The notes: generated by a model from the sequence alone, not told the origin. A stretch of 64,000 nt of DNA from an uncultured Gammaproteobacteria bacterium (GCA_964448725.1 CAYVAJ010000005.1:2137-66136), one strand, 5' to 3'; counted from the first letter of the stretch, positions 11,141 to 46,059 are shown. Numbers and translations: made by a program.

Positions 11141-11620
11141 TTAGAACGGTATATCGTCAGGATTAATATCTTCTTCTACCTGTACTGGTTCTTTTTTACT
11201 TGCTGTTTTCTTTGGAGCAGCTTCTTCTGGTTTTTCAGCTTGTTCATCTACTGCTCCTGAATCTTGATACCCTTCATCTGCTGTTCTTTTTGAATCAAGA
11301 ATAAGCATATCGCTAATTACAATTTCTGTAATTGTTCGCTGTGCACCATCTTGCCCTGTCCAGCTTCTTGTTTGCAGTCTGCCCTCAACATATACTTTTC
11401 GCCCTTTTGTTAAGAGCTGTGAACACAGTTCTGCTAATTTATTCCATGCAATAATGCGATGAAACTCTGTATCTTCTTTTTTTTCACCATTCTCGGTCTG
11501 CCACGTGCGGTTTGTCGCAATTCCCAATGTACACACAGCAGTGCCCTGAGGCGTATACCGCAATTCAGGATCGCGTGTCAAATTTCCGATCAACTCTACT
11601 CTATTTAAACTACGTGCCAT
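11141..11620 (-). CDS. ssb: single-stranded DNA-binding protein
   Basis: OB-fold SSB N-terminus (VELIGNLTRDPELRYTPQG), acidic tail ending DDIPF. Confidence 0.85.
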   Translation of the reverse strand: MARSLNRVELIGNLTRDPELRYTPQGTAVCTLGIATNRTWQTENGEKKEDTEFHRIIAWNKLAELCSQLLTKGRKVYVEGRLQTRSWTGQDGAQRTITEIVISDMLILDSKRTADEGYQDSGAVDEQAEKPEEAAPKKTASKKEPVQVEEDINPDDIPF

Positions 11621-37184: not shown

Positions 37185-37658
37185 TTAATTCTTTATTCTT
37201 TTCCTAGTGTCTCTGTCCTCTGAATATGTTTCACTCGCTTCAGGACTTCTTCTATTAATATGAGGAATACGAGGAGTTATCGCAACGGCAACTGTTACAA
37301 TCAGCCCGATGATATTAAAATCAAATCCAAATGCCATACCAATCGCACCTGATACCCAGAGACTTGCCGCAGTAGTTAAATTTCTGACATTAGCACCCTC
37401 TTTTAAGATTAAACCTGCACCTAAAAATCCAATACCTGAGACAATTTGTGCTGCAATTCTGGATTTTGAGGCAGGATCTACAACTGATGACATAAACGTA
37501 AAAAGCATCGCACCTGTAATAACAAGAATATGCGTACTAATTCCTGCATCCTTGCCTCTTGACTCTCTTTCTGCACCAATAATAAAACCAGCCGCCATAC
37601 TCAGGAGTAAGCCTGCAATTAAACGTATTTCGTTTTGGGTAATCAATTCACTTAACAT
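37185..37658 (-). CDS. MgtC/SapB-family membrane protein
   Basis: AGFIIGAERE...GISTHILV...IVSGIGFLGAGLIL is typical of the MgtC family. Confidence 0.7.
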   Translation of the reverse strand: MLSELITQNEIRLIAGLLLSMAAGFIIGAERESRGKDAGISTHILVITGAMLFTFMSSVVDPASKSRIAAQIVSGIGFLGAGLILKEGANVRNLTTAASLWVSGAIGMAFGFDFNIIGLIVTVAVAITPRIPHINRRSPEASETYSEDRDTRKRIKN

Positions 37659-37681: not shown

Positions 37682-38179
37682 CTAACTACGAACTTCTATA
37701 CTTCCAAATATTGAAGCTCCGTCTATTAACAACTTTACTGAATTTTGCTTTTTTTTATGGGTACGGTCTTTTACCTCACCAAGGATTCCAACAGCCTCAG
37801 ACTGAACCGTCCAGCCTTCAGGTATTCTAATATTAAGATCGGAAAATACTGCTACTAATTCCATTTTAATTTCTTTCCTCTTCGTCTTAACCTTTGAAAG
37901 GTCAATATCTGAGTCAGAAAAAATAGAAATCACTTTTCCTCCACTGAAATTTTTACTTTCAAGAACTCTATTTGCATCGGAAAATATCTGTACATCGTTT
38001 ACAACATCCTCCTCTGAAGATGATTGAGATCCTCCAAAAGGAGTTCTCTTTCCCCGCAATAGAATTACTCCGAAGGTGATCAGAACCAATGGGAAAATTA
38101 ATCGTCCGATATTTAGACCAAACAATGCAGAAAGACCAATGACTATAAGAATCAAACCAATTATATTTCTCATCTTCAT
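37682..38179 (-). CDS. LiaF-like (DUF2154) membrane protein
   Basis: Two TM helices plus a C-terminal beta domain (ELVAVFSDLNIRIPEGW...ASIFGSIEV) like the LiaF C-terminal domain. ATGA overlap with the upstream gene. Confidence 0.5.
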   Translation of the reverse strand: MKMRNIIGLILIVIGLSALFGLNIGRLIFPLVLITFGVILLRGKRTPFGGSQSSSEEDVVNDVQIFSDANRVLESKNFSGGKVISIFSDSDIDLSKVKTKRKEIKMELVAVFSDLNIRIPEGWTVQSEAVGILGEVKDRTHKKKQNSVKLLIDGASIFGSIEVRS

Positions 38180-38583
38180 CTTTGTTGTATCCTATCCATT
38201 ATACTAAATATTTGGTCAAACTCAGGCGGTAGACTTTGTAATAATGAAGAATTTGTCTGATAAATCACAAAAAGTATTACAAATCCGACTAGAATAAAAC
38301 CTACGATAGTTACTAACCAATGTGTTGCACGGTTTGAACTAAAAATTATCTGAAATCCCCAAAATATCAGAAATAACGGCCAAAATTTCCATAAGCTACC
38401 CCATACCTCCCATGGCACAAGATCAAGTGTATTAAGAAAAAATAGCACTCCTACACCGATCAGAATAAGACCGTAGACAGTATTGCTCTGTTTATTTCCT
38501 GATTGATCATCTGAACTGCCAAAAATAGTGACTCGTTCTTTTGGCAAACTACTTTTCTTGTTCTTTTGCTCCTTTTCTGTCAT
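38176..38583 (-). CDS. hypothetical polytopic membrane protein, co-transcribed with the LiaF-like gene
   Basis: Three to four TM helices. Overlaps the downstream gene by 4 nt. Confidence 0.4.
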   Translation of the reverse strand: MTEKEQKNKKSSLPKERVTIFGSSDDQSGNKQSNTVYGLILIGVGVLFFLNTLDLVPWEVWGSLWKFWPLFLIFWGFQIIFSSNRATHWLVTIVGFILVGFVILFVIYQTNSSLLQSLPPEFDQIFSIMDRIQQR

Positions 38584-38674
38584 ATATCAATTATATAAAA
38601 TTTAGTGATTTTTTACATAGTTACATAACTACTTATCTCACTTAAGAAAAGAGAAACTTGTATAATAGCTACGA

Positions 38675-38908
38675 ATGAAAATACAAATTATTACCCATCC
38701 TAACTCAAAAAACCCACGTATTGAAAAAGATCTTCTAGGAACCATTCATGTATATGTAAATCAACCTCCGCTTGAAGGAAAAGCAAACAAAGCAGTTATC
38801 GAAGCTTTAGCAAATTATTTCAAGGTAAAAAAAAGAAATATCTTGCTCTTATCCGGGCACAAGTCTAAAAATAAGCTTTTTGAAATAATCATTTCATCAA
38901 CTGCATAA
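38675..38908 (+). CDS. DUF167 (YggU-like) protein
   Basis: VNQPPLEGKANKAVIEALANYFKVKKRNILLLSGHKSKNK matches the DUF167/UPF0235 pattern. Confidence 0.7.
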   Translation: MKIQIITHPNSKNPRIEKDLLGTIHVYVNQPPLEGKANKAVIEALANYFKVKKRNILLLSGHKSKNKLFEIIISSTA

Positions 38909-38924
38909 TATCTGCAGGAGTAAA

Positions 38925-39560
38925 TTAAGGCTGAGATCTAATTTTCAAAAGTAATTGTAATACTTCACTATCAGAAACTTGGTCAAAATTGCGGTAGTAC
39001 AAACCGATCGCGCGCAGATCATAAGGACAATGTAAACAGATAAAATCATCAACCAATGTTTTTATTATTTTCCCAGTTTCCCAGTCACATACAGGTACGG
39101 CAAAGATAAGTTCTTTAGGTTCTTGTTTTTTAATTACTTCAATTGCAGCTCGTGCTGTAACACCTGTTGCCAGTCCGTCATCAACAAGAATAACTGTTCT
39201 ATTTTCGAGCTTTGGCAGTGAATTTCCGTTACGATATATGGTAATACGTCTTTGCATTTCCTTAAATTCTTTCTTTTTTACACGCTGTATTTCATCTTGT
39301 GTAATCCCAAGCATAGAAATAGTAGTCTCATCAAGAAATTGAAAACCTCCCTCTGCAATAGCACCTATGCCAAATTCAGGATTACCTGGTGCTCCTAACT
39401 TTCGTACAATAACTACATCAAGCGGTGCAGAGAGATGATTTGCCACCTCATATCCAATTGGGACACCACCCCGAGGCAGCGCCAAAACTATCGCAGAATC
39501 TGTAAATATCTTCAGCTTTTCTCCAAGCTGTCTGCCTGCATCTTCTCTATCTTTAAACAT
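38925..39560 (-). CDS. phosphoribosyltransferase-family protein
   Basis: PRPP-binding loop (VILVDDGLATGVT) and an N-terminal FKDREDAGRQL typical of stand-alone PRTase-like proteins. Confidence 0.65.
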   Translation of the reverse strand: MFKDREDAGRQLGEKLKIFTDSAIVLALPRGGVPIGYEVANHLSAPLDVVIVRKLGAPGNPEFGIGAIAEGGFQFLDETTISMLGITQDEIQRVKKKEFKEMQRRITIYRNGNSLPKLENRTVILVDDGLATGVTARAAIEVIKKQEPKELIFAVPVCDWETGKIIKTLVDDFICLHCPYDLRAIGLYYRNFDQVSDSEVLQLLLKIRSQP

Positions 39561-39652
39561 ATACTCAATATAGTATAACTTTCAGACTTTAAGCACTATT
39601 AAGAAATGGGTAAAAGGTCATTAAATAATGCGAATAATTATAAATAAAAATA

Positions 39653-39922
39653 CTATCGTGTACTATTTTTTAGTCTATTAAGTGCATTGCCCAACTCATC
39701 ATCGCTTGGTTCTACCAACACATCACCGTTGGGGAATACAATAGTTGGTACAGATCGCATGCCATTATTTATTTTCAGAACTTTCTCTGCCGCATCAGGC
39801 ACTTCATCAATATTTATATACTCGTATGATACTCCACGGGAATCTAAAAAATGTTTTGATCGTGCACAATCATGACACCATGTTGTTGCATAAAATTTTA
39901 TTTTTCTGTTTGTATTATTCAT
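39653..39922 (-). CDS. glutaredoxin-like (NrdH/YruB-type) thioredoxin-fold protein
   Basis: CHDC active site in KIKFYATTWCHDCARSK, and a cis-Pro region (VPTIVF). Confidence 0.65.
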   Translation of the reverse strand: MNNTNRKIKFYATTWCHDCARSKHFLDSRGVSYEYINIDEVPDAAEKVLKINNGMRSVPTIVFPNGDVLVEPSDDELGNALNRLKNSTR

Positions 39923-39924
39923 AG

Positions 39925-40776
39925 TCAGGTTTGCAAAAAGGGCAGAATGTATTTTGGTGGCGCAATACCTTTTTCATATTCTTCTTGAAGCTTGGAATAT
40001 TTGTCTATTCGTTGCGGATACCAGTCCTGTCCTTCAAGAATAGTGTCATTTTTATGTTTTTGATATACATATTCAAATGCGATTACCGTATTTTTGTATG
40101 TATCATTAGAAACACGTCCATCTGTACCAAACCGTTGATGATAATGATATAGTACTTCTGGTACGAAGAGTAATCCTTGCGGATATTTCTCACTCAGCTG
40201 CAGTGCAAACTCCCAATCTTCCAATGCACCAAGATCAACATGCTCATCAAAACGAATTCCATCCTCAATAACTTTCCGAGAATGCATAAAGCCAATATTA
40301 TCAAAATGAAATGTTTTTAAACCAATATCTTTTGTCGTAATTTGTTCAGGAAAATGGTCAGAGTTATCTATTTCTCGTACTAAAAAATTTTCTACATATA
40401 ATTCTAATGTTTTTTTACCACGGGGAATTGCAAAAACAATGTCTTCTGCACGAGTAATATACTGCATCATTACTTCCAGATGATTTAGAAATAACTCATC
40501 ATCATCGTCAAGATAGGTTATCCACTCACCTTTTGCCATATCTAAGGCAGTATTACGAGCGGCTGATGGTCCTTTATTTATATCATGTCGAATATATCGT
40601 ATTCTCTTATCTGAGTACTCCTTTACTTTATCAGATGTATCGTCTGTGGAAGCATCATCGACAATAATGTATTCAAAATAAGGATATGTTTGTGATAATA
40701 CACTTTCGATCGCATTACCAAGCATATATGCGCGATTATGTGTAGGAGTAATAACAGTCACTAAAGGAGTATTCAT
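39925..40776 (-). CDS. family 2 glycosyltransferase
   Basis: VTVITPTHNRAYMLGNAIESVLSQTY..EYIIVDDASTDDT, and a DDD-type motif (YLDDDDE). Confidence 0.75.
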   Translation of the reverse strand: MNTPLVTVITPTHNRAYMLGNAIESVLSQTYPYFEYIIVDDASTDDTSDKVKEYSDKRIRYIRHDINKGPSAARNTALDMAKGEWITYLDDDDELFLNHLEVMMQYITRAEDIVFAIPRGKKTLELYVENFLVREIDNSDHFPEQITTKDIGLKTFHFDNIGFMHSRKVIEDGIRFDEHVDLGALEDWEFALQLSEKYPQGLLFVPEVLYHYHQRFGTDGRVSNDTYKNTVIAFEYVYQKHKNDTILEGQDWYPQRIDKYSKLQEEYEKGIAPPKYILPFLQT

Positions 40777-40785
40777 AGCAGTTAC

Positions 40786-41430
40786 TTAAACGTGAGATAA
40801 TGTGTGGGACATTTTCTTCTTTTTTGTTTTTAGGTATCCTTTATTCACGGTATTTGGAGCAATCTCAATTTGTACCCGTTCCTCAACTTCTATACCGTAC
40901 TGTCTCAACTGTTCAACTTTATCAGGGTTATTCGTCAATAAACGTATTTTGTGTATTCCTAGATCGTGCAGAATGTCTACTCCATCTTTGTAATCACGCG
41001 CATCAACCGGAAGGCCTAACATCTCATTTGCTTCGACAGTATCATACCCTTTTTCCTGTAACGCATAGGCTTTTATTTTATTTGTAAGCCCGATCCCTCT
41101 CCCTTCTTGGTTGAGATAGAGGATAATACCAGAGCCATTTTTTTGTATTTGCTTCATGCTCTGTTCTAGCTGATCACCGCAATCACATTTTAAGGATGAA
41201 AAAATATCCCCAGTCACACACGATGAATGAATACGCACAAGAGGGGTTTCTTGTATTTTTCCCATAACCAAAGCAACATGCTCTCTGTGTTCTTGCGACA
41301 TATATACAAGTAACTGAAATATGCCATAGGAAGTTGGAAGAGATGTTTGTGCAGTGCGTACCAACTTATCATCTATCGCTTGTTTCGGGGTATCAAAAGA
41401 TGTGTCAAAAGTTGTCTTAATTACATTCAT
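40786..41430 (-). CDS. ribA: GTP cyclohydrolase II
   Basis: Zn-binding CVTGDIFSSLKCDCG, and the catalytic region LNQEGRGIGLTNKIKAYALQEKGYDTVEAN. Its start overlaps the upstream stop as TAATG. Confidence 0.8.
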   Translation of the reverse strand: MNVIKTTFDTSFDTPKQAIDDKLVRTAQTSLPTSYGIFQLLVYMSQEHREHVALVMGKIQETPLVRIHSSCVTGDIFSSLKCDCGDQLEQSMKQIQKNGSGIILYLNQEGRGIGLTNKIKAYALQEKGYDTVEANEMLGLPVDARDYKDGVDILHDLGIHKIRLLTNNPDKVEQLRQYGIEVEERVQIEIAPNTVNKGYLKTKKKKMSHTLSHV

Positions 41431-42152
41431 TATTTATATTCACCAAAATCTTCGGATTTTACAAACAGTGATTCTACTCCAAGTGCAGTAAGAACCTGTG
41501 TCACACCCTTCACAAGCCCTGCAGGACCTGCCATATAAAAGATAGTGTTATTTACGTCAGAAATATATTTGCGAATCAGGTCCTCTGTAAAATGTCCTTG
41601 CTCTCCTTCCCAACCGCTTTGGACATCTTCTTGCGTCATAGTTGGAATAAAAGTAAAGTTACTATTTTGCTCTGCAAGCGCTGATAATTCGTCTAAAAAT
41701 GCTGCCTCTTCTCGTGTTTTGTTTGAGTAAAATAAATAAACTTTTTGAGGATAATTTTCGTGTGCTGCTTGCTTTGCCATACTCATAAAAGGAGTAATTC
41801 CAATCCCCCCTGCTAAAAATGCCACTGGCCGTTTCGCATCAGATGGCAATACCATTGATCCACGTGGGTCTCTTATTTCAATTTCTGTACCCTCTGACAT
41901 ATTCTTCAGATTGCGTTTAAACGCTGAATCCCGCATTTTAGTTGTAAATCCAATAGTTGGATCAGATGGAATCGTAATGAATGAAAATGTCCGTTCATTT
42001 CCTTCACTATCAGTATCAACTGGATTGAGTAATTTTAGCGAAGCATGTTGTCCAGGAATGTACTCAAAGCCTTCCGGCTTTTCAAAATAAAAAGCCATTT
42101 TGTCCTGTGCAACTGCTTGTGATTTTATAAATTTTGTCGTAAATGTTGCCAT
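41430..42152 (-). CDS. ferredoxin-NADP-reductase-like FAD/NAD(P)-binding oxidoreductase
   Basis: RxYS/T FAD motif (RTFSF), NAD(P) motif (GGIGITP) and an FR-type beta-barrel N-terminus. No Fe-S domain. Confidence 0.7.
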   Translation of the reverse strand: MATFTTKFIKSQAVAQDKMAFYFEKPEGFEYIPGQHASLKLLNPVDTDSEGNERTFSFITIPSDPTIGFTTKMRDSAFKRNLKNMSEGTEIEIRDPRGSMVLPSDAKRPVAFLAGGIGITPFMSMAKQAAHENYPQKVYLFYSNKTREEAAFLDELSALAEQNSNFTFIPTMTQEDVQSGWEGEQGHFTEDLIRKYISDVNNTIFYMAGPAGLVKGVTQVLTALGVESLFVKSEDFGEYK

Positions 42153-42154
42153 AA

Positions 42155-42490
42155 TTATCGTTCGTGTTCCTCCTCAATTATTTTTACAATTGATGTAACA
42201 AGCGGGTCATCATTTTTCACTTTATACAATACCGTCTGACCAACTTTTTCGCGTGTAACAAGCCCTGATTGTTCGAGGATTTTTAATTGCTGAGAAATTG
42301 CAGGAACTGTCATACCCATGATATGTGCTATATCTGACACTTTTACATCTTCTCCATGAGTCACCATCAATAAGCGAAACACCCGACACCGAGTCGGATC
42401 GCTTACGGCATTAAAAATAATCGGCAGTCTATCCTGGCCGGTTACAACAGTCTTTTTTATAGTGTCAATTTGTGTATTTGTTAAAGCCAT
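42155..42490 (-). CDS. ArsR/SmtB-family transcriptional regulator
   Basis: HTH (SDPTRCRVFRLL...VSDIAHIMGMTVPAISQQLKILEQSGLV). Confidence 0.8.
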   Translation of the reverse strand: MALTNTQIDTIKKTVVTGQDRLPIIFNAVSDPTRCRVFRLLMVTHGEDVKVSDIAHIMGMTVPAISQQLKILEQSGLVTREKVGQTVLYKVKNDDPLVTSIVKIIEEEHER

Positions 42491-42565
42491 AGTTTCTTAT
42501 TTGTTTGTTTAATTAACTATTTAAGTATAGCACGGAAAATTTATATGTCAAGATGATATGCAAAA

Positions 42566-42913
42566 CTATTTTGAAGTAAGAAGATTATGCAAAACTACTG
42601 CTTCGTTGTGTTGGATATCTTTTGCACCATATAACAAAGTAACCATCTGGTGTTCTTCCTCAAGTTTTTTTATCTGATGCAATAATTCTTTTTGTTTGGC
42701 AATTTCCTGGGTATATTTTGTAACAAAACCCTCCCATTTTCCAGGATCATGCCCAAACCATTTGCGAAGTTCAGTACTTGGAGCAATATCTTTTAACCAA
42801 AGATCTAGATGTGCTTTTTCTTTTGATACACCTCTAGGCCATAATCGATCAACCAAAATTCGAAAACCATCCTCTTCTTCACAAGCATCATAAATACGTT
42901 TTAACTTTATCAT
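42566..42913 (-). CDS. DUF488 (YeaO-like) protein
   Basis: IKLKRIYD...[15 protein letters not shown]...[19 protein letters not shown] is a canonical DUF488 sequence. Confidence 0.75.
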
Positions 42914-42919
42914 ACTGAT

Positions 42920-43528
42920 CTAGGTAATGGATTCATTCGTAAAATGTTTGTGGTCTTTATGCTTACTATTATAAATCCAGTACGGCACTACTCCAATTAA
43001 ATTTACAATACTGGAAAGTATAAATAGGGTTTTAAAACCAAATTTACTCGCGATAATTCCGCCTAACGCAATAGCAATTCCCATTCCTGTAAATGTAATT
43101 GCATCATACGTACTCCATGTTCTTGATGCTTGTTGTCTGGTGAGATTTAGTGAAAACATTGGATATTTTGCAGGTGAAGAAATACCAAAACTCATCCCTG
43201 CAATGGTAAAGAATATATAAAATGATAAAAGATTTGGTACAAATGCGATAAGTAGATAGCAACTGGAGAGAAGAATCATTCCAATTGCATCAGTAAGCAT
43301 TCTTTTTCTGTCTGAAGGAAATTTTACATAATTACTAATAAATAACCCTGTTATTACTCTCACTAACAAATACAGAGTAAAACCAAAAGATGCCGATTGC
43401 ACATTACCATTTGGTAGTGTGCTTACAACAAACACCGCAAGTATCGGAGAGACCAAATTCCACGCCGACCAGAAGAATGCTTCTGAGAAAATAAAAGCAA
43501 TGACAATTGGATTCATTTTCGGGAACAT
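42920..43528 (-). CDS. half-size MFS-like membrane protein (possible gene remnant)
   Basis: Six TM helices resembling one MFS half. Lies next to the sensor kinase. Confidence 0.4.
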   Translation of the reverse strand: MFPKMNPIVIAFIFSEAFFWSAWNLVSPILAVFVVSTLPNGNVQSASFGFTLYLLVRVITGLFISNYVKFPSDRKRMLTDAIGMILLSSCYLLIAFVPNLLSFYIFFTIAGMSFGISSPAKYPMFSLNLTRQQASRTWSTYDAITFTGMGIAIALGGIIASKFGFKTLFILSSIVNLIGVVPYWIYNSKHKDHKHFTNESIT

Positions 43529-43568
43529 ACAATTTAGTATATCTATTTGTTACTGAGTTATCAATTCA

Positions 43569-44750
43569 CTACTCTGTTGGTAATTGTACAAAAAACGTTG
43601 AGCCCTTCTTCAGAGTACTTTCCACCCACATCTTACCCTTATGTCTTTTTATAATCTGTGAAGAAATGAATAACCCAATACCAGTTCCTTTTGTACTCCC
43701 GCTATTTCCTGCCCTAACGTATGGTTTGAATATTCTTGTTTGGTCTTGTTTTGCTATCCCTTGACCAAAATCCTGTACGCTTACTATTATACTATTTTTC
43801 TTGTTATATACTTTGACGATTACTTGTGCTGCATGTGGCGAGTATTTAATTGCATTACTTATAAGATTTATAATTACTTGGCCAATTCTATATCTATCAC
43901 CAACGATAGATTTTTTTGAATCACCAGAAAAGTAAATAGTGTGTGTATCAGTGGTTACCTGCTGATCTGCTATCACTTCCTTCACAAGATCAGTAATAAG
44001 AAATGATTCACTGCGATACGTAAATCTTCCAGTTTCAATTTTTGTTACATCAAGCATCTCATTAACCATGTTTATAACTTGGTTAATTTGCCGATCAATT
44101 CTCACCGAAAAACCTGCAAGCTTTTTATCTTTATTTTTATCTGCAAGTTTTTGGATAATATGTGCATATCCTTTTATCGAGGTTAACGGGTTTTTCAATT
44201 CATGTGATACTACTCCAATAAACTCACTCTTTTGTCTGTCATTTTTTCTATAAGACTCACTTAATATACTGATAAAAAGTCCTTCAATGAAGAAGATAAT
44301 GAGAACAAATAAGTTTGAAAAATTTGCCGCACCTAAGAGCGTTTGTTTAGGTTCCAAAAAGAAATAATAGGTAATAATTCCTGATAAAATTGTGGCCAGA
44401 ATACCAGGCCCAAAACCGCCATACCACGCACCGATAATCACAATAAATAACGAAAAAATAAAAGGGACATCTTTCCCTAATACTGTTATGAGCGTAAATT
44501 TAAAAATAAAAAAAAGAGTAACAACTATAAATACAAATCCATATCGCTTCCAACTATTTTCGTTTTCATGAATATATAACTTATTTACGTATTGATGGAT
44601 TACTGACCAGACATCTTTCATAGCAAGCCTATTATAATATGCATATACCAGTATTGATAGAGAAAGGCTAATTTCACAGTATGGAGTATAATAAAGGCAT
44701 GATTTCGAGTACTCAATCATTGACCGTAGCGTATCATCCGCCTTTTGCAT
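43569..44750 (-). CDS. membrane sensor histidine kinase
   Basis: HisKA H-box (VSHELKNPLTSIKGY) and HATPase N, G1 and G2 boxes. Several N-terminal TM helices. The start is uncertain: the track start 44759 is GTG. ATG at 44750 would overlap alkA head-to-head by 70 nt; ATG at 44621 would not. Confidence 0.75.
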   Translation of the reverse strand: MQKADDTLRSMIEYSKSCLYYTPYCEISLSLSILVYAYYNRLAMKDVWSVIHQYVNKLYIHENENSWKRYGFVFIVVTLFFIFKFTLITVLGKDVPFIFSLFIVIIGAWYGGFGPGILATILSGIITYYFFLEPKQTLLGAANFSNLFVLIIFFIEGLFISILSESYRKNDRQKSEFIGVVSHELKNPLTSIKGYAHIIQKLADKNKDKKLAGFSVRIDRQINQVINMVNEMLDVTKIETGRFTYRSESFLITDLVKEVIADQQVTTDTHTIYFSGDSKKSIVGDRYRIGQVIINLISNAIKYSPHAAQVIVKVYNKKNSIIVSVQDFGQGIAKQDQTRIFKPYVRAGNSGSTKGTGIGLFISSQIIKRHKGKMWVESTLKKGSTFFVQLPTE

Positions 44751-45583
44751 GGAATGCACATTTGCGTTTTCTTAAAAGACGTGCAATAGCAGGTGTTGAA
44801 AAAATTACTAATGAGCAATATGCACGGACTGTATCTCTTATTCATGAGAATAAAAGATATGTTGGATGGATTACTGTACGTAATGACAAAAAAAACTCAG
44901 AGCTGGTAGTAACAATATCACAAAATTTGATACCAGTTACCGAACAAGTACTTACCCGTGTACGCCAGCTTTTTGATACTTCCTGTTCACCGAGTAGAAT
45001 TTCAGAACAACTTGGACCACTGGCTACCTCTCTTCCTGGACTTAGGGTGCCCGGTGCATTTAATGGGTTTGAGATGGCAGTACGCGCGATTTTAGGACAA
45101 CAGATTACTGTTACTGGGGCACGTACACTGGCTGGACGCATTGTACAAGCCTTTGGATATCAAATCTCAACCCCTATACAGAATGTTGATAGCATTTTCC
45201 CATCTCCAGAAGAAATTGTAGATACTGGACCAGTAGCTCTCACATCGCTTGGTATTACAAGAAAAAGAGCACAAACAATATATGACCTCGCAAAAGCGCT
45301 TGCTGAAAAAAAATTAACACTCAATCCAAATGGAGACAGTATAACTACACTTAACCAACTTCGTGCAATCAAAGGAATTGGTGAATGGACAACGCAATAC
45401 ATCGCGATGCGTGTATTATCTCTGCCAGATGCGTTTGTTCATACTGATTATGGTGTACAAAAAGCCCTTTCTGAGAAACGACCTGCAGCAATACTGAAAA
45501 TTGCAGAAAAATGGCAGCCTTGGCGTGCCTATGCAACGATGTATTTATGGAATTCATTAGCTGAAAAGGAGATGCATGTATGA
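44681..45583 (+). CDS. alkA: DNA-3-methyladenine glycosylase II (AlkA; HhH-GPD)
   Basis: AlkA N-terminal domain plus HhH-GPD (LRAIKGIGEWTTQYIAMR, catalytic Asp region DAFVHTD). Confidence 0.75.
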   Translation: MEYNKGMISSTQSLTVAYHPPFAWNAHLRFLKRRAIAGVEKITNEQYARTVSLIHENKRYVGWITVRNDKKNSELVVTISQNLIPVTEQVLTRVRQLFDTSCSPSRISEQLGPLATSLPGLRVPGAFNGFEMAVRAILGQQITVTGARTLAGRIVQAFGYQISTPIQNVDSIFPSPEEIVDTGPVALTSLGITRKRAQTIYDLAKALAEKKLTLNPNGDSITTLNQLRAIKGIGEWTTQYIAMRVLSLPDAFVHTDYGVQKALSEKRPAAILKIAEKWQPWRAYATMYLWNSLAEKEMHV

Positions 45584-46059
45584 TGTATGATTTTTTTCTA
45601 TCACCACTTGGTAGAATTATTATCAGTACCGATGGGGCAAGCATAACTTCATTTCTGTTTGAAGAACAAAAATATTTTACCCCTATCTCACCTGATTGGA
45701 TATGCAAGCCAGATCACCCACTGCTGCAAGAATCAAAGAAGCAACTTAACGAGTATTTTAATGGGACACGAATGAGCTTTAATCTTCCACTATCACCTAT
45801 AGGAACCAAATTCCAGCAAGAAGTATGGAGCGCTTTGGAACAAATTCCGTGCGGGCGTGTAACTACTTATAGAGAAATTGCACATACAATAGGCAGACCA
45901 AAAGCAGTACGAGCAGTAGGAACGGCAATTGGACGAAATCCGCTCTGCATTGTTGTACCGTGCCACCGCGTCATTGGTGTAGATGGAAAATTAACTGGTT
46001 ATAGCGGTGGTCTTAAACGAAAACAATGGCTTCTGAGACATGAACAGAAGAACCACTGA
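45580..46059 (+). CDS. ogt: methylated-DNA-protein-cysteine methyltransferase
   Basis: PCHRV active site (VPCHRVIG) and the HTH region. ATGA overlap with alkA. Confidence 0.85.
   Translation: MMYDFFLSPLGRIIISTDGASITSFLFEEQKYFTPISPDWICKPDHPLLQESKKQLNEYFNGTRMSFNLPLSPIGTKFQQEVWSALEQIPCGRVTTYREIAHTIGRPKAVRAVGTAIGRNPLCIVVPCHRVIGVDGKLTGYSGGLKRKQWLLRHEQKNH

What the first reader, a model, noticed from the sequence alone, without database searches (positions are those of the whole stretch)
39653..42490. ArsR-regulated operon coupling an orphan GTP cyclohydrolase II to an FNR-like reductase, a GT2 glycosyltransferase and a glutaredoxin-like protein
Five minus-strand genes are packed with 1-9 nt spacers: arsR-family regulator, then a 2-nt gap, then the FNR-like FAD/NAD(P) oxidoreductase, then a TAATG stop/start overlap, then ribA (GTP cyclohydrolase II), then a 9-nt gap, then GT2, then a 2-nt gap, then the NrdH/glutaredoxin-like protein. 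A PRTase-family gene lies 92 bp downstream. No ribD/ribH/ribE/ribF is nearby, and reduced-genome bacteria commonly lack riboflavin synthesis. An isolated GTP cyclohydrolase II, which converts GTP to a diaminopyrimidinone ribotide, translationally coupled to a reductase and a glycosyltransferase therefore looks like a small pathway for something other than riboflavin. Candidates include a modified pyrimidine/pterin-like nucleotide, a glycosylated product or a redox cofactor, under metal/redox (ArsR) control.
Basis: partly seen in the sequence, partly recalled or inferred. Interest (0 to 1): 0.55.

Follow-up and report, generated by a model that had tools for sequence, protein, structure and literature searches.

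The report
ArsR-controlled reductase–RibA–glycosyltransferase operon in CPR
A small, tightly packed operon in an uncultured ultra-small (CPR/Patescibacteria) bacterium places the first enzyme of vitamin B2 synthesis under its own repressor, together with a flavin-dependent reductase and a sugar transferase. The gene order is real and conserved in relatives, but the enzyme looks like an ordinary riboflavin enzyme, not the start of a new pathway.

Summary
Five minus-strand genes (arsR, FNR-like, ribA, GT2, grx-like) have spacers of +2, -1 (TAATG), +9 and +2 nt, and a PRTase gene lies 92 nt downstream.

New findings:
- A near-consensus sigma-70 promoter sits upstream of arsR, followed by a 16-bp palindromic operator. 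The operator is unique in the window and recurs at the same place in relatives.
- ArsR–FNR–RibA is conserved in six sequenced CPR lineages. GT2 follows RibA in three of them, and is inferred in three more. Grx occurs in only two.

The "non-riboflavin pathway" reading is weakly supported:
- RibA passes the curated RibA cutoffs and keeps every catalytic residue, including the Tyr that distinguishes true RibA from FAPy-forming paralogs.
- Its clade has only one diagnostic column.
- Its sister CPR clade sits in ribE-ribH-ribA-ribD operons.
- In one relative the triad lies next to ribH-flavokinase-ribE.

The FNR-like protein is a standalone flavohemoglobin-reductase-type electron transferase from a large multi-phylum family.

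Best reading: an autorepressed module that couples flavin supply to a NAD(P)H-dependent flavoreductase, analogous to ribA+fpr in the E. coli SoxRS regulon.

Open questions are the role of GT2, the ArsR signal, and whether this genome has the other rib genes.

The parts
42524..42551 (-). sigma-70-type promoter of the operon (TTGACA, 16-nt spacer, TGcTATACT)
   Evidence: It matches 11 of 12 consensus positions and has an extended -10 TG. It is the best promoter-like site in 38600-44900. The same TTGACA / TATA(C/A)T architecture lies upstream of arsR in L005, L006, L007, L175 and L178.
42509..42524 (-). Putative ArsR operator: 16-bp palindrome TTAAATAGTTAATTAA (consensus TTAAnnA-GT-TnnTTAA) abutting the -10 box
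   Evidence: It is the only match in the 64-kb window, against 0.06 expected. There is one copy per subclade locus, always at the arsR promoter (L005 4877, L006 4901, L175 8899, L178 9629), and L007 has a one-mismatch version. No copy occurs in 1.95 Mb of wider-family loci. Binding by ArsR is inferred.
42155..42490 (-). ArsR/SmtB-family winged-helix repressor (111 aa), first gene of the operon
   Evidence: NF033788 scores 72.3 bits against a cutoff of 55, and PF01022 gives E=6e-11. It is 71-81% identical across subclade loci, more conserved than the enzymes. It has a single conserved Cys35, no CVC motif and no alpha5 His ligands.
41430..42152 (-). Standalone FNR-family FAD/NAD(P)H oxidoreductase (240 aa)
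   Evidence: PF00175 gives E=1.8e-20. The R54-x-F-S57 motif, the GGIGITP loop and the C-terminal Tyr239 are conserved. The AF2 model has pLDDT 93. The best fold matches are the flavohemoglobin reductase domain (1GVH, TM 0.85), then 4EH1, NqrF and the SpNOX DH domain.
40786..41430 (-). ribA, GTP cyclohydrolase II (214 aa); its start overlaps the FNR stop (TAATG)
   Evidence: TIGR00505 scores 250.6 against 205.85, and NF001591 263 against 148. The alignment to E. coli RibA 2BZ0 gives E=1e-54, with C71/C82/C84, Y122 and R145 conserved. It belongs to a 26-member clade linked to FNR.
39925..40776 (-). Soluble GT2-family glycosyltransferase (283 aa), 9 nt after ribA
   Evidence: PF00535 gives E=5.5e-37, and the DxD residues D90/D92 are invariant. 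It belongs to a tight CPR family of about 60 proteins of roughly 280 aa. It follows ribA in L006 and in L179/L181, where it overlaps ribA by 8 nt. The AF2 model has pLDDT 96.6. The acceptor is unknown.
39653..39922 (-). Glutaredoxin/mycoredoxin-like thiol-disulfide protein (89 aa, C-H-D-C motif), last gene of the operon
   Evidence: PF00462 gives E=2.8e-13. TIGR02200 (mycoredoxin) scores 74.8 against a cutoff of 89.5. It is present only in the window and L006.
42566..42913 (-). DUF488 protein (115 aa) directly upstream of the operon promoter; probably an associated gene, not under the operator
   Evidence: PF22752 gives E=4.8e-40. DUF488 is the commonest neighbour of this FNR family, within 5 kb in 22 of 160 wider-family loci. 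It also follows ArsR-FNR in L177.
38925..39560 (-). Type-I phosphoribosyltransferase-family gene, 92 nt downstream; probably not part of the unit
   Evidence: PF00156 gives E=1.5e-18. No terminator-like site is predicted between grx and this gene. In L006 its homolog (54% identical) lies 3.4 kb upstream of arsR, with other genes in between.

Best explanation
This is an autoregulated operon found in one lineage of Microgenomates-like CPR bacteria.

**Regulation.** An ArsR-family repressor dimer binds a 16-bp palindrome that abuts the -10 box of a strong promoter. This shuts off its own gene and the genes behind it. An unidentified signal releases it. That signal is not a classical thiophilic or alpha5 metal. 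It may be thiol oxidation at the single conserved Cys35.

**Products.** Derepression yields three things:
1. A standalone flavohemoglobin-reductase-type flavoprotein. It passes electrons from NAD(P)H, probably NADPH, through bound flavin to a separate acceptor.
2. Translationally coupled to it, canonical GTP cyclohydrolase II. This opens the committed step from GTP into riboflavin, FMN and FAD, so flavin supply rises together with flavoprotein demand.
3. Lineage-variable cargo: a GT2 glycosyltransferase (probably ancestral), a glutaredoxin-like protein, or FMN-type enzymes.

The remaining rib genes are expected elsewhere in the genome.

**Analogy.** The logic parallels the E. coli SoxRS regulon, which co-induces ribA and fpr. 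zwf is also a SoxRS member, from my own knowledge.

**Shown:** gene identities, spacing, promoter and operator, conservation, canonical RibA chemistry, and the FNR fold.

**Inferred:** repressor-operator binding, the signal, NADPH use, the acceptor, and the flavin supply-demand purpose.
For: - **Operon.** Spacers are +2, -1, +9 and +2. The promoter matches 11 of 12 positions. The palindrome is unique in the window (0.06 expected), sits at the same position in 5 related loci, and is absent from 1.95 Mb of other loci.
- **Conservation.** ArsR-FNR-RibA occurs in the window, L005, L006, L007, L175 and L179/L181 with differing flanks. All 11 FNR-linked RibAs fall in one 26-member clade.
- **RibA is canonical.** It passes the curated cutoffs, its catalytic residues are invariant, and only 1 clade-specific column exists.
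- **Riboflavin context.**
  - The sister clade lies in ribE-ribH-ribA-ribD operons.
  - In L007 the triad is divergent to ribH-flavokinase-ribE.
  - In L005 ribA is followed by PNPOx/luciferase-like flavoenzyme genes.
- **FNR-like is an electron transferase.** This follows from the fold matches and from family fusions to Rieske and b-heme ferric-reductase domains.
- **NADPH theme.** G6PD lies within 5 kb in 11 of 160 wider-family loci, and malic enzyme lies beside the operon in L175.
- **Precedents.** E. coli ribA and fpr are both SoxRS members (PMC6092379). The ArsR-family thiol sensors RexT and CyeR control a thioredoxin and an OYE flavoreductase (PMC8960804).
Against: - The other rib genes were not found in the 64-kb window, and the genome could not be searched. 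Riboflavin synthesis in this organism is therefore not demonstrated.
- RibB was not seen in any CPR rib locus.
- The model does not explain why GT2 is so persistently coupled to ribA.
- It does not explain why one relative has GTP cyclohydrolase I in place of ribA behind the same ArsR-FNR pair.
- Cys35 aligns with a buried hydrophobic position in other ArsR proteins, so it may not be a sensor.
- In the wider FNR family, RibA is adjacent in only 1 of 160 loci. The coupling is therefore lineage-specific and could reflect inherited gene order.
Confidence: 0.5

Rival explanations
1. One reading: this is a specialised small-molecule pathway. RibA makes the diaminopyrimidinone ribotide (DARP) from GTP. 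The product, or a derivative, is reduced with help from the FNR-like enzyme and glycosylated by GT2. The result is a modified pyrimidine, pteridine or flavin-like glycoside, produced under ArsR control and independent of normal riboflavin synthesis.
For: - GT2 follows ribA in 3 of 6 sequenced lineages, and its start overlaps the ribA stop in one.
- GT2-bearing operons include the most basal branch of the clade.
- GT2 is soluble and belongs to a dedicated CPR family of about 280-aa proteins.
- Its best Foldseek match is the nucleoside glucosyltransferase AvpGT (PMC11959488).
- A relative has GTP cyclohydrolase I in the ribA position.
- No other rib genes lie in the window.
Against: - RibA shows no sign of neofunctionalisation.
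- In L007 the triad sits beside ribH-flavokinase-ribE.
- GT2 is absent from L005, L007 and L175.
- With the family profile, the best PDB matches are polymer-forming GT2s and AvpGT ranks only fourth. The TM-score of 0.64-0.70 is barely above that of other GT2s.
- The FNR-like family is a generic electron transferase spread over many phyla without RibA.
Confidence: 0.15
2. This is a free flavin/pterin reductase system for iron or redox chemistry. The FNR-like enzyme reduces diffusible GTP-derived heterocycles: riboflavin/FMN where ribA is present, or pterins where GTP cyclohydrolase I is present. These reduced carriers then reduce Fe(III) or quench oxidants. RibA supplies the substrate, not a cofactor.
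For: - This reading explains why either GCH II or GCH I can follow the same ArsR-FNR pair. It also explains why GCH I recurs near the wider family, in 5 of 160 loci.
- The closest fold is the E. coli Hmp reductase domain. From my own knowledge, Hmp has reported dihydropteridine and ferric reductase activities.
- One family member is fused to a transmembrane ferric-reductase domain.
- ZIP and P-type ATPase genes lie near some loci.
Against: - The protein keeps the RxFS motif and the C-terminal aromatic residue typical of enzymes with tightly bound FAD.
- It scores far below the Fre and LuxG cutoffs: 69.7 against 230, and 66.4 against 340.
- No iron regulator or iron-uptake gene lies in the operon.
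- In L178, RibD_C is separated from GCH I by a tRNA gene on the opposite strand.
Confidence: 0.12
3. This is a nucleotide-pool sanitation and oxidative-stress operon. RibA is kept for its side activity on oxidised guanine nucleotides (8-oxo-dGTP/8-oxo-GTP), not for riboflavin. It is co-expressed with a reductase and a glutaredoxin-like protein as part of an oxidative stress response.
For: - E. coli RibA hydrolyses 8-oxo-dGTP and is SoxRS-induced (PMC6092379, citing Kobayashi 1998 and Koh 1996).
- The operon ends with a Grx-like gene in two lineages.
- The DNA-repair genes alkA and ogt lie 2.2 kb upstream, transcribed divergently, and ogt-like genes lie near L179/L181.
- A NUDIX gene lies in L182.
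Against: - There is no direct evidence for this role.
- The residues specific to riboflavin-type catalysis are under full conservation.
- L007 is linked to ribH, flavokinase and ribE.
- Grx is absent from most lineages.
Confidence: 0.08
4. The genes have no functional coupling. The order is inherited, compact genome architecture within one CPR lineage. Unrelated genes (a reductase, ribA, a cell-envelope GT2, a redoxin) happen to share a promoter.
For: - CPR genomes are compact. Downstream cargo varies between lineages: GT2, Grx, PNPOx/LLM, malic enzyme, GCH I or DUF488.
- The RibA link is confined to one subclade of the FNR family.
- JGI annotates GT2 homologs as cell-wall glycosyltransferases.
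Against: - The triad is retained while flanking genes differ in every lineage.
- Stop/start overlaps or 0-22 nt gaps are maintained at RibA identities of 66-73%.
- The dedicated repressor and operator are more conserved than the enzymes.
Confidence: 0.1

Closest known systems
Canonical monofunctional GTP cyclohydrolase II (E. coli RibA, PDB 2BZ0; TIGR00505/NF001591)
   Same: - The alignment is full length (E=1e-54).
- The Zn cysteines, catalytic Tyr and Arg are identical.
- The protein scores above the curated cutoffs.
- E. coli ribA is also monocistronic or unlinked to other rib genes, and is stress-regulated by SoxRS (PMC6092379).
   Different: - Here ribA is translationally coupled to an FNR-type reductase and a GT2.
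- It is controlled by an ArsR-type autorepressor.
- No FMN riboswitch is present.
E. coli SoxRS regulon (ribA, fpr; zwf from my own knowledge)
   Same: It co-expresses GTP cyclohydrolase II with an FNR-family NADPH oxidoreductase. In the wider FNR family the gene also sits next to G6PD (zwf) in 11 of 160 loci (PMC6092379).
   Different: - In E. coli this is a dispersed regulon run by a [2Fe-2S] MerR-type sensor plus an AraC-type activator. Here it is a single operon run by an ArsR-type repressor.
- The FNR-like protein is not an Fpr ortholog: NF008178 scores 23.9 against a cutoff of 390.
- Stress responsiveness has not been tested here.
Non-metal, thiol-based ArsR/SmtB regulators (RexT of Nostoc controlling trxA2; CyeR of Corynebacterium controlling the OYE reductase cye1)
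   Same: The regulator is an ArsR-family repressor lacking the canonical metal sites. It sits next to a flavin oxidoreductase and a thiol redoxin gene, and it has few cysteines (PMC8960804).
   Different: - No detectable specific sequence relationship exists, since RexT is not among the PDB hits at E<=1e-3.
- The single Cys35 lies in the DPxR(L/C)R helix and aligns with a hydrophobic residue in other ArsR proteins.
- Redox sensing is only an inference.
CPR (Daviesbacteria/Levybacteria-type) riboflavin operons ribE-ribH-ribA-ribD
   Same: Their RibA proteins are 58-61% identical to this one and form the sister group in the tree. They come from the same broad taxon.
   Different: Those operons have no ArsR, FNR or GT2. 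In the window clade ribA has left the rib operon and joined the ArsR-FNR pair. In L007 the remaining rib genes sit divergently next to it.
Nucleoside-specific GT2 glucosyltransferases AvpGT/NucGT/ScaGT (PDB 9JMA/9JN3)
   Same: Both are soluble single-domain GT2 enzymes of about 290 aa. AvpGT is the best Foldseek match, with E=1.7e-16, TM-score up to 0.70 and a full-length alignment. AvpGT acts on tubercidin (PMC11959488), which from my own knowledge is a GTP-derived nucleoside.
   Different: - Identity is only 23-26%.
- With the family profile, polymer GT2s score higher.
- The acceptor-side residues are family-specific.
- No tubercidin or 7-deazapurine genes are present.
RibA-like paralogs with altered chemistry (Streptomyces SCO6655-type FAPy-forming GCH II; toxoflavin ToxB)
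   Same: Like this gene, they are a GCH II homolog located outside a rib operon and next to tailoring enzymes.
   Different: From my own knowledge, the FAPy-forming type replaces the catalytic Tyr with Met. Here Tyr122 is invariant in all 26 clade members. No toxA, toxC, toxD or toxE-like genes are present.

Membership tests
GTP cyclohydrolase II (RibA) | Profile score above the curated family cutoffs | tested here: met
   TIGR00505 scores 250.6 against 205.85, NF001591 263 against 148, and PF00925 gives E=5e-69.
GTP cyclohydrolase II (RibA) | Zn-binding Cys triad plus the catalytic Tyr and Arg (Ec C54/C65/C67, Y105, R128) | tested here: met
   C71/C82/C84, Y122 and R145 align to the E. coli residues. 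They are invariant in 119 of 119 aligned homologs.
GTP cyclohydrolase II (RibA) | Operates with ribD, ribH and ribE in the same genome (riboflavin pathway) | not testable with these tools
In relative L007, ribH, flavokinase and ribE are adjacent.
FAPy-forming / altered-product GCH II paralogs | Substitution of the catalytic Tyr (Tyr to Met) | tested here: not met
   Tyr is retained in all 26 clade members.
FNR superfamily (FAD/NAD(P)H two-domain reductase) | NAD-binding domain profile, RxYS-type flavin motif, GxGxxP loop and the two-domain fold | tested here: met
   PF00175 scores 74 bits against a cutoff of 22. R54-T-F-S57 and G115-GIGITP are conserved. The AF2 model has pLDDT 93, and the TM-score is 0.85 to 1GVH.
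Fre/LuxG NAD(P)H:flavin reductase | Score above the family cutoff | tested here: not met
   NF005963 scores 69.7 against 230, and LuxG 66.4 against 340.
Fpr-type ferredoxin/flavodoxin-NADP+ reductase | Score above the family cutoff | tested here: not met
   NF008178 scores 23.9 against a cutoff of 390.
ArsR/SmtB transcription factors | Winged-helix profile above the cutoff | tested here: met
   NF033788 scores 72.3 against 55, and PF01022 42.4 against 22.
ArsR/SmtB transcription factors | Palindromic operator at its own promoter (autoregulation) | tested here: met
   The palindrome TTAAnnAGTTnnTTAA abuts the -10 box and is conserved in 5 loci. It is unique in the window, against 0.06 expected. 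Binding itself was not tested.
ArsR/SmtB metal sensors | alpha3(N) CXC site or alpha5 Asp/His site | tested here: not met
   The CVC position reads V-K-V-S. The CzrA His86 and His97 equivalents are absent. The only Cys is C35.
Glycosyltransferase family 2 | GT-A profile and DxD motif | tested here: met
   PF00535 scores 127.7 bits against a cutoff of 23.3. D90 and D92 are invariant. The fold matches GT2 structures.
Nucleoside-specific GT2 (AvpGT type) | Specific similarity in the acceptor half beyond the generic GT2 fold | tested here: inconclusive
   AvpGT is the top Foldseek hit, but the TM-score is only 0.64-0.70 and identity 23-26%. It ranks fourth behind polymer GT2s in the profile search.
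Mycoredoxin / NrdH glutaredoxin-like proteins | Score above the family cutoff; CxxC motif | tested here: inconclusive
   TIGR02200 scores 74.8 against 89.5, and NrdH 40.1 against 85.75, both below cutoff. A C-H-D-C motif is present, and PF00462 is met.
FMN-riboswitch-controlled rib genes | RFN element upstream | tested here: not met
   There is no Rfam hit in the window at the gathering threshold, or in the region at E<=1. None is found in 9 related loci either.

The most novel reading that the evidence does not exclude
The ancestral four-gene unit ArsR-FNR-RibA-GT2 may be a dedicated CPR pathway. It would divert the GTP cyclohydrolase II product, or a flavin or ribityl intermediate, into a glycosylated redox-active small molecule. 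This would be a flavin-like or pyrimidine glycoside cofactor or exported mediator. The FNR-type enzyme would keep it reduced, and the ArsR-type repressor would sense the molecule or its redox state. The relative that has GTP cyclohydrolase I in the ribA position would make a pterin counterpart.
Probability: 0.13. Interest if true: 0.75.

Novelty: new variant of a known kind. Interest (0 to 1): 0.4.

Why it matters
CPR/Patescibacteria are thought to be metabolically minimal, and how they obtain and regulate cofactors is poorly known.

This locus shows that one CPR lineage pulled the committed riboflavin enzyme out of the rib operon. It then wired that enzyme to an NAD(P)H flavoreductase under a protein repressor with a clearly definable operator, where an FMN riboswitch would be the usual control.

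That yields several directly testable items:
- a regulator-operator pair (EMSA and effector screening);
- a candidate stress-to-flavin supply circuit analogous to SoxRS in bacteria that lack SoxRS;
- an unexplained but persistent ribA-GT2 coupling.

If the GT2 acts on a RibA-derived molecule, this would be a new cofactor-like metabolite. If it does not, the finding is an ordinary though tidy example of operon remodelling.

Tried and rejected
1. **Other rib genes in the window.** tblastn and phmmer with CPR RibH, RibE, flavokinase, RibD and RibB-domain queries found nothing. The exact look-up returned only Logan contigs of 7 kb or less, and cluster members carried no accession.
2. **Genome and metagenome scans with FNR alignments.** They missed the RibA-linked subclade but gave useful negative adjacency statistics.
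3. **FMN riboswitch.** None was found in the window or in 9 related loci.
4. **Fusion (Rosetta-stone) search with the FNR profile.** No RibA, GCH or DUF488 fusions turned up. The only fusions were to Rieske domains, b-heme ferric-reductase domains and membrane anchors.
5. **FNR-like as a replacement for the RibD reductase.** Rejected as unlikely. The family is an electron-transferase type, is spread over many phyla without RibA, and has metal-centre fusions.
6. **ArsR as a metal sensor.** Rejected for the canonical sites. Homology to RexT or CyeR was not detectable.
7. **GT2 as a nucleoside GT.** The structural hint from AvpGT was not upheld by the profile search.
8. **DUF488 function.** No PDB relative and no usable literature were found.
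9. **Unannotated ORFs in the L007 rib operon.** No family hits were found.
10. **Literature on an ArsR-ribA or FNR-ribA operon, or on CPR GCH II.** Nothing relevant was found.

Full report
**1. Observation**

The spacers are +2 (arsR to FNR-like), -1 (FNR-like to ribA, sequence TAATG), +9 (ribA to GT2) and +2 (GT2 to grx-like). A phosphoribosyltransferase-family gene follows 92 nt further on.

Profile searches confirm every family call:
- ArsR/SmtB: NF033788 72.3 bits against a cutoff of 55.
- FNR-type NAD-binding domain: PF00175 E=1.8e-20.
- GTP cyclohydrolase II: PF00925 E=5e-69, TIGR00505 250.6 against 205.85, NF001591 263 against 148.
- GT2: PF00535 E=5.5e-37.
- Glutaredoxin fold: PF00462 E=2.8e-13. 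The nearest NCBIfam family is mycoredoxin, below its cutoff.

Base composition is uniform with the rest of the window. The closest named relatives of the RibA, FNR and GT2 proteins are Patescibacteria/CPR, namely Daviesbacteria, Levybacteria, Roizmanbacteria and Doudnabacteria.

**2. It is a real, autoregulated operon**

The 75-nt gap upstream of arsR holds the best sigma-70-like promoter in 38600-44900. It reads TTGACA, a 16-nt spacer, then TGcTATACT, matching 11 of 12 consensus positions.

A 16-bp palindrome, TTAAATAGTTAATTAA (42509-42524), abuts the -10 box. The pattern TTAAnnAGTTnnTTAA occurs once in the 64-kb window, against 0.06 expected. It occurs once in each of L005, L006, L175 and L178, always at the same position behind the -10 box upstream of arsR. 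L007 has a one-mismatch version. It never occurs in 1.95 Mb of loci from the wider FNR family.

The ArsR protein is the most conserved gene product of the unit, at 71-81% identity. RibA is 66-73% identical and FNR 54-60%.

The ArsR lacks the CVC (alpha3) and Asp/His (alpha5) metal sites of characterised family members. It carries one conserved cysteine, C35 in the motif DPTRCR. That residue aligns with a hydrophobic residue in CzrA, ArsR and CadC-like structures. The signal is therefore unknown. A thiol switch of the RexT or CyeR kind (PMC8960804) is possible but unproven.

**3. Conservation**

Exact look-ups of RibA and FNR relatives show the following arrangements:

| Locus | Arrangement | RibA identity to window |
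|---|---|---|
| L005 | ArsR-FNR-RibA, then PNPOx, luciferase-like and PNPOx flavoenzyme genes | 73% |
| L006 | ArsR-FNR-RibA-GT2-Grx | 72% |
| L007/L008 | ArsR-FNR-RibA, divergent to ribH-flavokinase-ribE | 68% |
| L175/L176 | ArsR-FNR-RibA, then malic enzyme | 70% |
| L179-L182 | ArsR-FNR-RibA-GT2, with the GT2 start overlapping the ribA stop by 8 nt | 66-67% |
| L178 | ArsR-FNR followed by GTP cyclohydrolase I | not applicable |
| L177 | ArsR-FNR followed by DUF488 | not applicable |

L179-L182 count as one lineage, because their RibA proteins are 99% identical. Flanking genes differ between lineages.

In a neighbour-joining tree, all 11 RibAs with evidence of FNR linkage fall in one 26-member clade. 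The clade excludes the rib-operon RibAs. GT2-bearing operons are scattered over this clade and include its basal branch. GT2 is therefore probably ancestral and was lost several times. Grx is confined to the window and L006. The PRTase is not positionally conserved.

**4. What the RibA is**

It aligns end to end with E. coli RibA (2BZ0, E=1e-54). The zinc cysteines are C71/C82/C84, the catalytic tyrosine is Y122 and the nucleophile arginine is R145. These positions are invariant in 119 homologs, and only one alignment column distinguishes the FNR-linked clade.

The next-closest clade, at 58-61% identity, lies in canonical CPR riboflavin operons: ribE-ribH-ribA-ribD, ribE-ribH-ribA and ribH-ribA-ribD. 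In L007 the remaining rib genes, which have no ribA of their own, sit beside the triad.

The literature also reports riboflavin pathways in groundwater CPR (PMC11188291). The evidence therefore favours an ordinary riboflavin-pathway GCH II that has been relocated, not an enzyme with new chemistry.

The window itself contains no other rib gene and no FMN riboswitch. The rest of the genome could not be examined.

**5. What the FNR-like protein is**

It belongs to a large family, with 2,505 representatives at E<=1e-30. Members are about 240 aa long and occur in CPR, Acidobacteriota, Nitrospirota, Proteobacteria, Bacilli and Actinobacteria.

Conserved features are R-x-F-S, GGIGITP and a C-terminal aromatic residue. 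The AF2 model has pLDDT 93. It is closest to flavohemoglobin reductase domains (1GVH, TM 0.85; 4EH1), NqrF and the SpNOX dehydrogenase domain. The protein falls far below the Fre, LuxG and Fpr cutoffs.

Family fusions carry a Rieske domain, a transmembrane b-heme ferric-reductase domain, or membrane anchors. That is typical of an NAD(P)H-to-metal-centre electron transferase.

In 160 wider-family loci, the neighbours within 5 kb are as follows:

| Neighbour | Loci (of 160) |
|---|---|
| DUF488 | 22 |
| Glucose-6-phosphate dehydrogenase | 11 |
| GTP cyclohydrolase I | 5 |
| ArsR | 2 |
| RibA | 1 |

The RibA and ArsR link is thus a lineage-specific innovation. The recurring NADPH-generating neighbours suggest NADPH as the donor, which is an inference.

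**6. GT2**

This is a soluble GT-A enzyme with an invariant DxD. It belongs to a tight family of about 60 proteins of roughly 280 aa, almost all from CPR.

The model has pLDDT 96.6. Its best Foldseek hit is AvpGT, a nucleoside 3'-O-glucosyltransferase (PMC11959488). However, the TM-score is only 0.64-0.70. A family-profile search ranks chondroitin polymerase and GalT1 above AvpGT. The acceptor is unresolved.

**7. Interpretation**

The best-supported model has confidence of about 0.5. It is an ArsR-type autorepressor operon that co-expresses a NAD(P)H flavoreductase with the committed enzyme of flavin biosynthesis. This couples cofactor supply to flavoprotein demand.

The closest functional analogy is E. 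coli SoxRS, which co-induces ribA and fpr (PMC6092379). zwf is also a SoxRS member, from my own knowledge.

The rivals are:
- a free flavin/pterin reductase system, which would also explain the GCH I variant (0.12);
- an 8-oxo-guanine nucleotide sanitation role (0.08);
- inherited gene order without functional coupling (0.10).

**8. Novelty and verdict**

No description of an ArsR-FNR-ribA(-GT2) operon, or of ArsR-type control of ribA, was found in the searchable literature.

All components are known families. The arrangement and its regulation are new, so I rate it a new variant of a known kind, with interest 0.4.

The persistent ribA-GT2 coupling and the GCH I swap keep a more novel reading alive, at probability about 0.13.

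Noticed in passing
window 42566-42913 (-); L177 4914-5258; L014, L023, L028, L049, L051 and others: DUF488 (the 'inactive N3' subclade, 115 aa) is the commonest neighbour of this FNR-like family across phyla. It lies within 5 kb in 22 of 160 loci and is often directly adjacent on the same strand. It also sits immediately upstream of the operon here. It has no PDB relative and no known function. The FNR-DUF488 pair looks like a conserved, unexplained two-gene unit.
   Followed up: partly
L178 9663-12128: The same ArsR-FNR pair, with the same operator, is followed 4 nt later by GTP cyclohydrolase I (PF01227), not by RibA. A standalone RibD_C-type reductase lies 261 nt further on, separated from GCH I by a tRNA gene on the opposite strand (11297-11367).
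   Followed up: partly
window 42920-43528 (-); L006 4244-4834: A half-size (about 200 aa, roughly 6-TM) MFS_1 protein is conserved next to the operon in both the window and L006. It could be a split or truncated transporter, and its substrate is unknown.
   Followed up: no
L089-L094 (Daviesbacteria/Levybacteria-type loci): CPR riboflavin operons show ribE-ribH-ribA-ribD. None has a RibB (DHBP synthase) nearby, and none has an FMN riboswitch. The Levybacteria operon ends with an EamA/DMT transporter (L091 7618-8580), which could be a flavin transporter.
   Followed up: partly
L005 6732-12618: A relative with 73-76% identical RibA carries PNPOx, a luciferase-like monooxygenase and a second PNPOx directly after ribA. 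Genes for heme-copper oxidase subunits (COX1, COX3, COX4) and UbiA lie nearby. That is unusual if this organism is a CPR bacterium.
   Followed up: no
L007 1100-2422 (-): Two ORFs with no family assignment (260 and 179 aa) follow ribH-flavokinase-ribE on the same strand. They are candidates for missing riboflavin-pathway steps in CPR (a RibB or RibD analog, or the phosphatase). No Pfam hit was found.
   Followed up: partly
window 43569-44759 (-) and 44681-45583 (+): The longest ORF for the DUF4118-HisKA-HATPase histidine kinase (GTG start, 396 aa) overlaps the divergent alkA start by 79 nt. The public gene call is 350 aa, so the true start is probably downstream. alkA-ogt (44681-46059) form a DNA alkylation-repair pair transcribed divergently from the cluster.
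   Followed up: no
window 37682-38583 (-) and 37185-37658 (-): A pair of LiaF-like membrane proteins and an MgtC-family gene lie just downstream of the cluster. MgtC, VTT-domain and PRTase genes are also near the operon in L006, which indicates residual synteny between the two genomes.
   Followed up: no
P0453, P0413, P0367/P0369/P0395/P0396/P0484/P0503: Members of the FNR-like family occur fused to a C-terminal Rieske [2Fe-2S] domain, to an N-terminal transmembrane ferric-reductase (b-heme) domain, or to C-terminal membrane anchors. These fusions hint at the kinds of electron acceptor the family serves.
   Followed up: yes
window 1-64000: No tRNA, rRNA or other Rfam-recognised RNA gene occurs anywhere in the 64 kb at the gathering thresholds.
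   Followed up: yes
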